Below are positions 16,801-22,800 of a stretch of DNA of 64,000 nucleotides, piece by piece. The stretch is taken from the NCBI RefSeq assembly GCF_003991155.1, contig NZ_CP031293.1. The stretch is one strand, 5' to 3'. Source of the DNA: Escherichia coli (GTDB lineage: Bacteria; Pseudomonadota; Gammaproteobacteria; Enterobacterales; Enterobacteriaceae). How positions within the stretch are numbered: position 1 is the first letter of the stretch; each line of letters starts with the position of its first letter. The position numbers are program-made.

Positions 16801-19800
16801 TTCATGGTCGTCACCGCCAGGTGAAATCCGGCTTCTTTTGCTGCCTTCACGGCTTTGTCATTAAATCCGCCAAATGGATAAGAAAGATACAAAACATGTG
16901 GATTAAATTGCGCCAGAGCGCGGCGTGAACGTGCAAAATCAAACAGAATATTGTGCTCACTACGGCTCAGCAATATAGGCCGCCGATAACCATCCACCCG
17001 ATGCAAAAAATGAGTATGTGACTGGAAATCAAATACATCGCGAATTTCGTTAAGTTCAGAAACGCTCATAAATTGCAGCGATTTTGGGTTCCATTTCTGC
17101 GGGTGACGTTTGATGCGCGAGGTAACAATAAACGCCGTCGCCTTCATACCATATTGTTTCAACACAGGATACGCATAGCGGCTCACCGACTTGAGGCCAT
17201 CATCAAAGGTAATTACCACCGCTCGCGCAGGGAGATTGATCTTATTCTTCACGTAACCTTCCAACTGCGCCATGCTCAGTGTCGCGTATCCCCTGTCGCG
17301 CAGCCAGGCCATCTGGTTATTGAAAGCGCGTACCGAGGTGGTCGTCGAAGTATGGCGAAAACGGGTGTTTTCTTCGTCGCGCAAAATATGGTGATAGGTT
17401 AGCACCGGCAGGCCATTATCGGGTTGGGCATCCAGCGCGCTGATATAGGCCAGTCGATCGCCAATACGGATCTGATACCAGGTTTGATTTAACCTGTCTT
17501 TCAGTTTATGCAAAATCGGGTAGCGCAAATTGTCCGCCAGTACTCCAAATGGCGCACTGCCCACACTCGGTGCGTTATAAACCGGTGTATCTTTCCAGGT
17601 TATTAAGTTCTGATTACTCAGCGGCTTGTTGAGGTCACCCAAACCATCTTCAACTTTTTGTCGCCCCTGAACCGGCTCGAGATGGCCTTTATCGATAAAC
17701 CCTTTACCAAAGCCAAAATTAAATGCGTAATAACTTGCGGCAGTGGGCTCCACGGCAATGATTTGCCCGGCCCGAATATTCCCTACCGTCACCATTTTGT
17801 CGCCAATTTGCGCCCAGACCGCGGCATTTTCGATGGTTTGCATATAACGGGCAGGTAATGCGGCACTGACGCTTGCGGTAAACAGCATCAGCAGGAGAAT
17901 AACAGCTTGTTTGTACATGAAAAAATAACCGAGGGTGAAACAACGCTTTTATTGTAGCAAAAGCGTCATCAGGATCGCGGGTTAATACTCATACAAATTA
18001 TGTTTGAGGACGAAAGGCGGATTTTTTTGTTGTTGGTGCCAAAGACTACTGACCTCCGGCGCACCCAGTTCGACAATTCGCTCGCGAAACTCAGCGCTGG
18101 ATAATGTTTCACGGTAGGCCAGCATCTGTTCAACTAACGGTAACGTTACCCCAGAAATCACTTCACAGCGGGAGTGTTTGTGGCTTAATAGCGAAGCCAC
18201 GCGGTACGGCGGCGCTCCGGCAATATCAGTTAAAAAGATCACCCCATCGCCAGAGTCTGCTTCATGCAGAGCATCGCACATCATACGGCTGAGCATATTA
18301 GAACTTAATCCGCGCCAGAAATTCACGGCCCGGCACTGAAGAAGCGCCCCGTGTTTTTTCTCCAGCGCATCCAGTATCTCTTGCGCCCGATCATCGTGAC
18401 AGGTAATAACCCAACCTAGCATCGCCTTCCTCCTTAGCCGAAAATCAGTCTACCCTGACCATGGTTGATAAAGGGTGATAGTCGTCAAAACTCCTCTCCC
18501 CCGAATCCAGAGGAGAGGAAATAGCCTTAGCTACGCAGACCACGCCCACGTTGGATCAGCGACCAGCAAATCAAATAAAACGCCACAATAAAGACCACCA
18601 GTACGCCAAAGGTAGTGACCAGCGGCACATCATTGATACCGAGGAAGCCGTAGCGGAAACCACTGATCATATAAACGATCGGGTTCAGGTGCGACAGTCC
18701 CTGCCAGAACGGCGGCAGCAAAGTCAGGGAGTAAAAGACCCCGCCCAAATACGTAAGTGGCGTTAACACAAAGGTTGGCACCAGGCTGATGTCATCGAAC
18801 GTTTTGGCAAACACGCCGTTCAGCAAACCCGCAAGGGAGAATAGCACCGCAGTGAGCACCAGGGTTAAGGCAACGAATACCCACGAATGCACCTGAAACG
18901 GCACAAAGAACAGCGAAATTGCTGTCACCAGCATGCCAACAAGCAGACCACGCGCCACGCCACCACCGACATATCCGGCAATAATGACATGAGTCGGAAC
19001 CGGCGCTACCAGCAGCTCTTCAATATTACGCTGGAACTTGGCACCAAAAAATGATGAAGCGACGTTGGCGTAGGCATTGGTGATTACCGACATCATGATC
19101 AGCCCCGGCACGATGAACTGCATATAGCTGAAGCCATGCATATCGCCGATGCGCGAACCAATCAGGTTACCGAAGATAATAAAATAAAGGGTCATGGTGA
19201 TGACCGGTGGCACCAGCGTCTGCACCCAGATACGCATAAAGCGATGGATCTCTTTCGCCCAGATGCTTTTTAGCGCCACCCAGTAAAGATGCATCATGCG
19301 CGATCTCCTTGTTTTTCATTAACCAGTGAAACAAACAGCTCTTCCAGACGGTTAGCTTTGTTACGCATACTTAATACCTGAATGCCCTGCTCACTTAACT
19401 GCGTGAATACGCTGTTGATCCCCTGCTCACGCAGCACTTCAACTTCCAGCGTGGCGGTATCTACCAGTCGATACTGATAGCCATCGAGCTTCGGTAACGG
19501 ACTTTTCGGTGCGAGATCGAGAATAAAGGTTTCTGATTTCAGCTTCGCCAGCAGCGCCTTCATCGAAGTATTTTCCACCAGCTCACCGTGTTGAATAATG
19601 CCGATATTGCGGCACAGCATTTCTGCTTCTTCCAGGTAGTGTGTGGTGAGAATGATGGTGGTGCCTTTGTCGCTTGAATTGTCAAACCAAGTGCAACGAT
19701 TTTTTGAAGTAAACTTCATAAGGTGTTTTCCAACCTAAACATTTACGTGGTCGTAAATTCAGTTTATTGATCACCTGTTGAATATCAACTTCGCTCCACT

Positions 19801-22800
19801 GATTGATGTCTTGGTGCTTCGGAAAGTATTCACGAAGTAACCCATTTGTATTTTCATTCGTTCCCCGTGTCCACGGTTGATGCGGCTCGGGGAAGTAAAA
19901 TTCTACACCCAGTGCTTCTGTTACCAAACGATGTTGGGCAAATTCTTTACCACGGTCTGGCGTAATTGACCGCAATATATGTGAATCCAGCAATTCAATC
20001 ATGGCTTTTTGGACTGCTTCGGCTTTTTTGGCAGGAATTTTCTTCACCAACTCAAAACGACTTTTGCGTTCCGTCAGCGTCAGCAAACAAGCTCCACCCG
20101 CTTTACCCAGTACGGTATCGGCTTCCCAATGTCCAAAGCGACTGCGATTTTGCGCCGAAATGGGACGGTCGTTCAAATGGTTGGATATCTGAATTTTGCC
20201 ACGTTTTTCATGATGATTTTTTGTATGCCGTGTTTTGCCTTTGTGGCGCAGTTTGCGACTGGCTTTGCGTTCGCCTATATCAAACAACCCTGAATAAATA
20301 CCACGATAAATGGTTGAATAACTAATGGATAATTCAGATTTTTCCAATTTTAATCGTGCGCTGATTTGTTCGGGCGACCAGTTTTCTGTCAGAAACTTTT
20401 CTTGCACCAAATTGAAATATTCAGGCTGCTCTAATTTGCGCTGTGCTTTGCTATTTTGACGATGCTTCAAATAGCTGTTTTGTGCGTTCGTTGCACTGTA
20501 GCTTTCTAGAGCGTGTCGTTTCAGCTCGCGAGAAATGGTGCTGGAGCTACGTCCCAGTGCTTTGGCAATTTCTGCTTGTTTTTTGCCCTGTGCGAGTAAA
20601 ATCATTATCTTTTCTCGTTCGTTTATTGTAAGATGTCGGTAGGAAGTACTCATCATTTGGAAATGGTTTTTGTGTGGAAACAAAATTATATTCTAGTTGA
20701 TGAGTACTTCTTTTTTTGTTGCACTTGGATTGTAAATTCAGCCGTTTAAATCCTTCAAAAAGCCCCACATTGAGCGGCGAAGTTCAATATCCACGCCTGC
20801 GGTCGGTTCGTCGAGAATCAGTAGTTTAGGTTCATGCATTAACGCACGGGCAATCATTAAACGGCGCTTCATCCCGCCAGATAACATACGCGCACGTTCG
20901 TTGCGTTTTCCCCATAGATCGAGTTGTTTAAGATACTTTTCGCTGCGAATGTACGCTTCTTTGCGCTCCACACCGTAGTACCCTGCCTGATTCACCACAA
21001 TTTGCTGCACGGTTTCAAACGGGTTGAAGTTAAATTCCTGCGGCACCAGTCCCAACTGACGTTTAGCGTTGACGACATCCTTCTCGAGATCGTAACCAAA
21101 TACGCTGACCCGCCCGGAGGTTTTATTTACCAGAGAGCTGATAATACCGATAGTGGTCGATTTCCCGGCCCCGTTCGGCCCGAGAAGCGCATAAAAATCA
21201 CCCGCTTCGACCTGCAAATCTATTCCACGAAGCGCCTGAACGCCGCCTGGATAGGTTTTTTTAAGCTGTTGAAGTTCCAGTGCAATGGTCATAAATTTTT
21301 ACTTACCTTACGTTCTTACACTTTATCTGTGGTTTAAATCGTCCCGGAGTTGCCCTATATTAGCCAAACGTAATTATTTGGTTACAGGTCGTTAACCTCC
21401 ATGAAAGACATAGATACACTCATCAGCAACAATGCACTATGGTCAAAAATGCTGGTGGAAGAGGATCCCGGATTTTTTGAGAAACTGGCACAAGCGCAAA
21501 AACCGCGCTTTCTATGGATTGGATGTTCCGACAGTCGCGTTCCTGCAGAACGTTTAACCGGTCTTGAGCCGGGCGAACTCTTTGTTCACCGTAATGTTGC
21601 TAACCTGGTCATTCACACTGACCTGAACTGCCTTTCCGTGGTTCAGTATGCAGTGGATGTTCTCGAAGTTGAACACATTATTATCTGCGGCCACTACGGT
21701 TGCGGCGGCGTACAAGCCGCAGTTGAAAACCCGGAACTGGGGCTTATCAACAACTGGCTGCTGCACATCCGCGATATCTGGTTCAAACATAGCTCATTGC
21801 TCGGCGAAATGCCGCAAGAGCGCCGTCTGGATACCTTGTGTGAACTGAACGTCATGGAACAGGTGTATAACCTGGGCCACTCCACCATTATGCAATCAGC
21901 GTGGAAACGCGGGCAGAAAGTCACCATTCACGGCTGGGCCTACGGCATTCACGACGGCTTGCTGCGTGATCTGGATGTCACAGCGACCAACCGAGAAACC
22001 CTTGAGCAACGTTACCGTCACGGGATTTCTAACCTCAAGCTGAAACACGCCAACCACAAATAAAAATGCCATGCCGGATGCAACACATCCGGCAACTTCA
22101 CACTTACTCGTCCAGCAGAATTACTTTGCCGATATACGGCAGATGACGGTAACGCTGTGCGTAATCAATGCCGTAACCCACCACAAACTCATCCGGGATC
22201 GAGAAACCGATAAATTCTACCGGGACGTTCACTTCACGACGGGACGGTTTATCCAGCAGCGTACAAATCGCCAGCGACTTCGGTTCGCGCAGGCTTAAGA
22301 TCTCACGCACTTTCGACAGTGTATTCCCCGAGTCGATGATATCTTCAACAATCAGCACGTCCTTGCCACGGATATCTTCATCCAGATCTTTGAGGATTTT
22401 CACATCACGGGTGGTGGACATGCCGCTACCGTAGCTGGAGGCGGTCATAAAGTCGACTTCATGAGATACCTGAACTTCACGGCACAGGTCCGCCATAAAC
22501 ATAAATGAGCCACGCAGCAGACCCACCAGCACCATATCGCTGCCGCTGTCTTTGTAACGCTCAGTAATCTGACGACCCAGTTCGGCGATACGCGCTTTAA
22601 TCTCCGCTTCGGGGATCATTACTTCTACAGTATGTTTCATATCTCTAACCATATGATTTAAAAACAAATCACTTCGCACGGGCAGGTTTTGGCACCGCAA
22701 CAAAGCGCAAGACACGCAGTATACCAGTAAAACTATTCATTCGCGGAATCTGTTAATAAAGCTCGAATTGTGATGACGATCACACATGTTAAAACCTATA

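What the first reader, a model, noticed from the sequence alone, without database searches (positions are those of the whole stretch)
19673..20742. ISApl1-like IS30-family element splits the ABC transporter gene yadG, with a 2-bp CG target duplication
A 1070-bp AT-rich element with 25-bp imperfect terminal inverted repeats (20/25 identical) and a single DDE transposase interrupts yadG between Walker B and the downstream helical region (...FLKDLN | DKGTTIILTTHY...). Exactly 2 bp (CG) is duplicated at the junctions, and removing the element plus one CG restores an intact 308-codon yadG. The size, 2-bp duplication and base composition fit ISApl1, an IS30-family element of Pasteurellaceae origin known for mobilising mcr-1. 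Only a solitary copy is present here, and no mcr/pap2 cargo lies in this window.
Basis: partly seen in the sequence, partly recalled or inferred. Interest (0 to 1): 0.6.

Follow-up and report, generated by a model that had tools for sequence, protein, structure and literature searches.

The report
ISApl1 insertion sequence splitting yadG

Summary
Window 19673-20742 (minus strand) is a full-length 1070-bp ISApl1. It matches 1069 of 1070 bases of the copy upstream of mcr-1 on an IncI2 plasmid, and its 324-aa IS30-family transposase is identical. The terminal inverted repeats match at 20 of 25 positions. The element sits in codons 183/184 of yadG, between the D-loop and the H-loop of the ATPase, flanked by a duplicated CG. 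A near-isogenic chromosome (E. coli 2016C-3878) is 100% identical over the 43 kb to the right. It has the empty site with one CG, so this is a true 2-bp target duplication. Removing the element and one CG restores a 308-codon yadG identical in protein to K-12 YadG. The target, AT-rich with a central CG, fits the published ISApl1 preference. None of 5,426 complete E. coli genomes shares this junction, while 234 carry ISApl1, mostly on chromosomes without mcr-1. The window holds no second copy and no mcr-1 or pap2. This is therefore a recent, simple copy-out-paste-in insertion of a known element, inactivating YadGH. "ISApl1-like" understates it: it is ISApl1 itself. Interest is low.

The parts
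19673..20742 (-). Complete ISApl1 insertion sequence (1070 bp). IRL is at the high-coordinate end and IRR at the low-coordinate end.
   Evidence: 1069/1070 identical to the ISApl1 upstream of mcr-1.1 on pMRY15-131_2. 100% coverage at 99.9% identity to 403 plasmid records and 327 E. coli records.
20716..20742 (-). IRL (left terminal inverted repeat, GCTGAATTTACAATCCAAGTGCAACAA). It holds a TACAAT hexamer at 20729-20734.
   Evidence: 20/25 and 21/27 identical to IRR.
19673..19699 (-). IRR (right terminal inverted repeat, reverse complement CTTGAATTGTCAAACCAAGTGCAACGA). It holds an outward-facing TTGACA at 19680-19685.
19682..20656 (-). ISApl1 transposase gene, 324 aa (HTH_38 plus rve/DDE core), intact.
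   Evidence: Translation identical to WP_012478345.1 as annotated on NZ_AP017622.1. NCBIfam NF033563 IS30 family, 309 bits against a cutoff of 80. Pfam HTH_38 at 2.7e-16 and rve at 2.5e-06.
19671..19672 (.). Target-site duplication CG, copy next to IRR.
   Evidence: The empty site in CP029747 has one CG.
20743..20744 (.). Target-site duplication CG, copy next to IRL.
20738..21292 (-). yadG 5' fragment. It encodes codons 1-183 plus one extra Gly, then a TGA stop supplied by the IS end. It keeps Walker A, the signature motif, Walker B and the D-loop.
19294..19672 (-). yadG 3' fragment (codons 184-308, with the H-loop TTHY and the C-terminal domain). It is fused in frame to an ATG inside the IS at 19719, giving a mechanical 141-aa ORF.
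18527..19297 (-). yadH, the permease partner. It overlaps the yadG stop codon and lies downstream of the insertion in the same operon.
   Evidence: annotation of the K-12 and 2016C-3878 records.
20643..20710 (-). Hairpin inside the ISApl1 5' region. A perfect 13-bp stem pairs IS nt 33-45 with nt 88-100 and covers the AUGAUG start codons.
   Evidence: I1. RNA fold of -23.1 kcal/mol, z = -5.77. Coordinates.

Best explanation
This is a recent, simple transposition of the known IS30-family insertion sequence ISApl1 into the chromosomal gene yadG of an E. coli strain. The strain belongs to a lineage whose sequenced members include mcr-1 and ISApl1 carriers.

How it got there (inferred from the known IS30-family mechanism): a donor copy elsewhere in the cell, probably on an mcr-1 plasmid or another chromosomal site, was copied out. 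This formed a circle or head-to-tail junction with the two ends 2 bp apart. In that junction the TTGACA in IRR and the TACAAT in IRL make a TTGACA-N17-TACAAT promoter that boosts transposase. The element was then pasted into an AT-rich target with a central CG (GATTTAAA-CG-ACAAAGG), duplicating the CG.

Consequences:
- YadG is cut after residue 183, which separates Walker A, Walker B and the D-loop from the H-loop. The ATPase is therefore inactive.
- The YadGH ABC transporter is lost even if yadH is still transcribed by read-through.
- The element is intact and should still be able to transpose.

Shown here: the element's identity, its boundaries, the duplication, the empty site, the gene disruption, and the absence of cargo. 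Inferred: the transposition pathway, the donor, the loss of function, and recency.
For: - Identity: 1069/1070 bases and 324/324 residues match the reference ISApl1, and the IS30 model is matched.
- Repeats at both ends.
- Duplication and empty site: the near-isogenic chromosome CP029747 has contiguous yadG with one CG.
- Reconstructed YadG is 100% identical to the K-12 protein.
- Recency: 0 of 5,426 complete genomes share the junction. The 43 kb to the right is 100.0% identical to relatives that have the empty site. Only one private synonymous change separates this copy from the common ISApl1 sequence.
- Ordinariness: 234 genomes carry ISApl1, at 636 chromosomal and 296 plasmid places, up to 41 per genome.
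- Published work reports 2-bp duplications, AT-rich targets with a central GC bias, copy-out-paste-in, and solitary hops without mcr-1 (PMC5404521; PMC9927407; PMC5821093).
- The junction-promoter geometry was computed from the ends.
Against: Nothing contradicts it. The limits are these:
- The donor copy and the rest of the source genome are unseen, so whether mcr-1 is present in the strain is unknown.
- No transcript or phenotype data show that YadGH function is lost.
- Recency rests on absence from one collection of complete genomes. Draft assemblies were not searched by DNA, and an exact-protein look-up of the truncated YadG found nothing.
Confidence: 0.95

Rival explanations
1. The copy is one end of, or a remnant of, the composite transposon Tn6330 (ISApl1-mcr-1-pap2-ISApl1), so colistin-resistance cargo is attached to it.
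For: ISApl1 is best known in that context. The dinucleotide next to IRL here is CG, the same dinucleotide that is conserved next to the IRL of the downstream ISApl1 in Tn6330 (PMC5821093).
Against: Both flanks are yadG and rejoin perfectly after removal of 1072 bp. The CG belongs to yadG in K-12 and in the near-isogenic genome. BLAST of ISApl1-mcr-1-pap2 against the window hits only the IS. The end motif occurs only twice in the window.
Confidence: 0.01
2. The insertion is an assembly artefact: a multi-copy IS was placed wrongly into yadG by the assembler.
For: Insertion sequences are repeats and are often misassembled. No other public complete genome has this junction.
Against: A misplacement would not create an exact full-length element with an exact 2-bp duplication of the target, at a site that fits the published target preference. 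This copy also carries a private base (IS nt 125) not seen in the best match of any of the 330 E. coli and 449 plasmid records with a hit. That argues for a distinct, physically real copy.
Confidence: 0.02
3. The insertion is real but not neutral. Loss of YadGH was selected, for example as an envelope adjustment in a strain exposed to colistin or carrying mcr-1.
For: YadH has been linked to MlaA and outer-membrane lipid asymmetry. This rests on a review (PMC11131202) citing Babu et al. 2018; the primary paper could not be read. The closest relatives include mcr-1 and ISApl1 carriers.
Against: This is a single occurrence with no recurrence among 5,426 genomes. ISApl1 inserts widely into unrelated genes (one search lists fiu, mdfA, xapB, bglJ and others; see also PMC5404521). 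No paper in the searched library mentions ISApl1 together with yadG.
Confidence: 0.05

Closest known systems
ISApl1 (IS30 family), first described in Actinobacillus pleuropneumoniae; the IS of Tn6330 that mobilises mcr-1
   Same: Length of 1070 bp, 99.9% nucleotide identity, identical 324-aa transposase, imperfect terminal repeats, 2-bp target duplication, and an AT-rich target with a central GC (PMC5404521, PMC9927407).
   Different: One private synonymous base (IS nt 125, window 20618; A instead of G, GAG to GAA in codon 13). The insertion site in yadG was not found in any complete E. coli genome searched.
Solitary chromosomal ISApl1 hops reported in serial mcr-1-positive E. coli isolates (PMC5404521)
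   Same: A single IS without mcr-1, disrupting a chromosomal gene, with a 2-bp duplication in an AT-rich site.
   Different: A different strain background and a different target gene. Those reported include iraM and a ydiK-like gene.
Tn6330 (ISApl1-mcr-1-pap2-ISApl1)
   Same: It uses the same IS and the same transposition chemistry. CG is also one of its ancestral duplications.
   Different: There is no second IS and no mcr-1 or pap2 here. This is a plain IS insertion.
IS30 of E. coli, the family prototype
   Same: HTH plus DDE transposase, 2-bp duplication, a joined-end intermediate with a 2-bp spacer that builds a junction promoter, and a preference for targets with a GC centre and AT-rich arms. 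This is established knowledge of the family, and the target preference is cited in PMC9927407.
   Different: It is a different element. Relatedness to IS30 was tested only through the family model; IS30 itself was not aligned here.

Membership tests
ISApl1 | Near-identical nucleotide sequence over the full 1070-bp length | tested here: met
   1069/1070 identical to the annotated ISApl1 on NZ_AP017622.1. 99.9% identity at 100% coverage to hundreds of records.
ISApl1 | Transposase identical or nearly identical to the ISApl1 transposase | tested here: met
   The 324-aa translation equals that of the CDS annotated WP_012478345.1, 'IS30-like element ISApl1 family transposase'.
ISApl1 | Imperfect terminal inverted repeats of about 27 bp | tested here: met
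   20/25 and 21/27 identical; the core is 23 nt at 87%. A 27-bp IRR is stated in PMC5821093.
ISApl1 | 2-bp target-site duplication | tested here: met
   CG at 19671-19672 and 20743-20744; a single CG at the empty site of CP029747 and of K-12.
ISApl1 | Insertion into an AT-rich site with a central GC bias | tested here: met
   The target is GATTTAAA-CG-ACAAAGG, and the 22 bp around it are 41% G+C. The preference is as published.
ISApl1 | Ability to transpose: formation of a circle or dimer junction with a 2-bp spacer | not testable with these tools
   The ORF and both ends are intact, and the joined ends would give TTGACA-N17-TACAAT. Activity needs junction PCR or a mating-out assay.
IS30 family | Single transposase with an N-terminal HTH and a DDE (rve) catalytic core that passes the family model | tested here: met
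   NF033563 at 309 bits against a cutoff of 80, covering profile positions 1-267 of 267. HTH_38 and rve.
Tn6330 composite transposon | Two direct ISApl1 copies bracketing mcr-1 and pap2 | tested here: not met
   There is only one IS and no mcr-1 or pap2 in the 64 kb. Both flanks are yadG.
YadG (ABC transporter ATP-binding protein), the interrupted gene | The reconstructed ORF equals yadG and sits in the can-yadG-yadH-yadI context | tested here: met
   308 aa at 100% protein identity and 10 silent nucleotide differences to K-12 b0127. Same gene order as K-12 and 2016C-3878.

The most novel reading that the evidence does not exclude
The yadG::ISApl1 knockout is an adaptive envelope change. Loss of the YadGH transporter, which has been linked to MlaA and outer-membrane lipid asymmetry, would compensate for the cost of, or enhance, mcr-1 or colistin-associated lipid A modification in this lineage. 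ISApl1 would then supply both the resistance gene and the compensatory mutation.
Probability: 0.04. Interest if true: 0.45.

Novelty: already known. Interest (0 to 1): 0.1.

Why it matters
As biology it matters little, because solitary ISApl1 hops into chromosomal genes are well documented. It has three practical uses:

- It flags the source strain as one that has hosted active ISApl1, so the rest of the genome and its plasmids should be checked for mcr-1.
- The unique yadG junction and the private base in the IS are handy strain-tracking markers.
- It is a natural null allele of the poorly characterised YadGH transporter.

Tried and rejected
- An exact-sequence look-up of the truncated 184-aa YadG product in the public gene index found nothing, so the source contig could not be identified.
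- No paper in the library mentions ISApl1 together with yadG, and none mentions strain 2016C-3878.
- The primary paper on YadH and the Mla system (Babu et al. 2018, PMC5922438) is not held. That link rests on a review's citation and on my memory.
- I looked for an outward hybrid promoter from the TTGACA in IRR into the yadG 3' part. No -10 hexamer lies at a usable spacing in the flank, so activation of yadH by a hybrid promoter is not predicted.
- Scans of metagenome and species-representative collections for the junction were considered and not run. They would add little beyond the 5,426 complete E. coli genomes.
- The sandbox did not receive locus L002, so the K-12 yadG sequence was pasted in.
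Full report
**1. The observation**

Window 19673-20742 is a 1070-bp segment of 41.5% G+C in a window of 50.7%. Its ends are imperfect inverted repeats. The repeat finder reports a 23-nt core (19675-19697 and 20718-20740) that is 87% complementary. Counted from the tips, the ends match at 20 of 25 and 21 of 27 positions. A degenerate end motif occurs only at these two places in the 64 kb, against zero in 100 shuffles.

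One long ORF fills the element on the minus strand. On either side lie the two halves of yadG, also on the minus strand:
- The 5' half (20738-21292) ends ...FLKDLNG*.
- The 3' half begins at 19672 with DKGTTIILTTHY.

CG is present at 19671-19672 and again at 20743-20744. Removing the element and one CG gives a 927-nt ORF of 308 codons. Its protein is identical to K-12 YadG, with 10 silent nucleotide differences.

**2. Is the 2-bp duplication real?**

A 2-bp repeat alone would occur by chance once in 16. Here there is an empty site in a near-isogenic genome.
- The 19.7 kb left of the element matches the chromosome of E. coli 2016C-3878 (CP029747) at 99.9%, and the match ends at record position 567458.
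- The 25 kb to the right matches at 100.0%, beginning at 567459.
- The two matches therefore overlap by exactly the CG.
- A direct alignment shows the same, and yadG is annotated as intact in that record.

The inserted DNA is thus 1072 bp: 1070 bp of element plus 2 duplicated bases.

**3. What the element is**

Against 72,556 plasmids, the 1070 bp match 449 records. Of these, 403 cover at least 80% of the query, nearly all at 99% identity or more, and they are annotated 'IS30-like element ISApl1 family transposase'. Hosts are mainly Escherichia, Salmonella and Klebsiella, but also Actinobacillus, Glaesserella and Pasteurella.

Base by base, the element differs at one position from the ISApl1 immediately upstream of mcr-1.1 on IncI2 plasmid pMRY15-131_2. 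That position is IS nt 125 (window 20618), A instead of G. The change is synonymous, and the 324-aa transposase is identical to WP_012478345.1.

The protein passes NCBIfam's IS30 model over the model's full length, at 309 bits against a cutoff of 80. It has Pfam HTH_38 and rve domains. The match boundaries coincide with the ends found from the yadG comparison. So this is ISApl1 itself, complete and apparently functional, not just 'ISApl1-like'.

**4. Fit to known ISApl1 behaviour**

Published work reports several matching features:
- A characteristic 2-bp target duplication and a 27-bp IRR (PMC5821093).
[quoted passage not shown] The target here, GATTTAAA-CG-ACAAAGG, fits this. CG in a T/A-rich context is even one of the two ancestral duplications of Tn6330. 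Here, however, the CG is native yadG sequence, so the resemblance is coincidental.

Joining the two ends with a 2-bp spacer would place the TTGACA of IRR (IS nt 1058-1063) 17 bp from the TACAAT of IRL (IS nt 9-14). That is the junction-promoter arrangement expected for this family. This is inference from the sequence plus established knowledge of IS30-type elements, not a test.

**5. Context and age**

The window is the E. coli chromosomal region hrpB ... yad fimbrial genes ... panBCD ... yadE-yadI-yadH-yadG-can-hpt-gcd ... aceEF ... acnB ... secA ... ftsZ/ftsA.

- Right of the element, 43 kb are 100.0% identical to a set of chromosomes from people, cattle, poultry, dogs, pigs and waste water.
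- These include the hosts of mcr-1 plasmids, such as MRY15-131, whose plasmid supplied the reference ISApl1.
- Strain 2016C-3878 has three chromosomal and two plasmid ISApl1 places.
- None of 5,426 complete genomes has a place covering the IS-yadG junctions.
- ISApl1 occurs in 234 genomes, at 636 chromosomal and 296 plasmid places, with a median of 2 and up to 41 per genome.
- Every top match to this copy in either collection scored one mismatch short of identity, so none carries the A at nt 125.

Together these results point to a recent, strain-specific hop of a kind that is common. There is no second copy and no mcr-1 or pap2 in the window, so this is not Tn6330.

**6. Consequences for the host genes**

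The duplication straddles codons 183 and 184 (AAC|GAC). The upstream product keeps these motifs:
- Walker A (residue 38)
- the signature motif (residue 137)
- Walker B (residue 157)
- the D-loop (residue 165)

It gains one Gly and stops at a TGA in the IS tip, losing the H-loop (TTHY, residue 192) and the C-terminal domain. An ABC ATPase without its H-loop histidine is expected to be inactive (established knowledge; inference here).

The transposase gene and yadG point the same way, so read-through could still transcribe yadH, whose start overlaps the yadG stop. An ATG inside the IS (19719) is in frame with the yadG 3' part, giving a mechanical 141-aa ORF. This might preserve translational coupling to yadH, but it is untested. 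The TTGACA in IRR finds no -10 partner in the flank, so no hybrid outward promoter is predicted.

**7. Comparison and verdict**

Every defining feature of ISApl1 that can be tested in silico is met; only transposition activity cannot be tested. The defining feature of Tn6330 is not met. The element and this type of event are already known. Only the insertion site is new to the collections and literature searched.

The sole speculative angle is that YadH has been linked to MlaA and outer-membrane lipid asymmetry. That link comes from a review citing Babu et al. 2018; the primary paper was not readable. It leaves open an adaptive reading in a colistin context. With a single occurrence and an IS that lands in many unrelated genes, I rate that reading as unlikely.

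Noticed in passing
window 11338-11345 (tandem run about 11330-11359): The window has one extra copy of an 8-bp tandem unit (ATGGCGTG; 2.75 copies against 1.75 in the near-isogenic chromosome CP029747). This frameshifts a yad-cluster 'fimbrial-like protein' gene into two ORFs, 11022-11354 and 11351-11626. It looks like slipped-strand copy-number change and could be an on/off switch for this fimbrial subunit.
   Followed up: partly
window 14931-14942 (tandem run about 14920-14965): The window has one extra copy of a 12-bp tandem unit (ATCCCTTCTGAA; 3.75 copies against 2.75 in CP029747). The change is in frame, inside a small hypothetical ORF on the minus strand (14803-15030; 75 aa here against 71 aa in the relative), between panC and rpnC.
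   Followed up: partly
window 20643-20710 (inside ISApl1, minus strand): A perfect 13-bp stem pairs IS nt 33-45 with nt 88-100 and so covers the transposase AUGAUG start (RNA fold -23.1 kcal/mol, z = -5.77). A TATAAT lies in the loop. This fits the classic IS device in which transcripts entering from outside, here from yadG, cannot be translated, while transcripts started inside the loop can. It is a property of every ISApl1 copy, not of this locus.
   Followed up: partly
window 19680-19685 and 20729-20734: An outward-facing TTGACA in IRR and a TACAAT in IRL would form TTGACA-N17-TACAAT when the ends are joined with a 2-bp spacer. That is the junction promoter expected for copy-out-paste-in elements.
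   Followed up: partly
window 20618 (IS nt 125): A private synonymous base (A instead of G; codon 13 GAG to GAA). It is absent from the best match in each of the 330 E. coli and 449 plasmid records with a hit. It could trace the donor copy or the clone.
   Followed up: partly
window 19294-19719, minus strand: A mechanical 141-aa hybrid ORF starts at an ATG inside the IS right end and runs in frame into the yadG 3' fragment, ending at the normal yadG stop that overlaps the yadH start.
   Followed up: no
window 20729-20758, minus strand: The consensus scan finds a weak promoter-like site (9 of 12 matches, 18-nt spacer). Its -35 (TTGAAG) is yadG flank and its -10 (TACAAT) is in IRL, so it would be a fortuitous hybrid promoter reading into the IS. 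This is a consensus match only.
   Followed up: no
whole window against CP029747, AP017620 and others: Apart from the IS and the two tandem-repeat changes, the window is identical to a group of E. coli chromosomes from humans, livestock, pets and waste water on several continents. Some of these strains carry mcr-1 plasmids and multiple ISApl1 copies. This suggests the source belongs to a widely spread clone, but the sequence type was not determined.
   Followed up: partly
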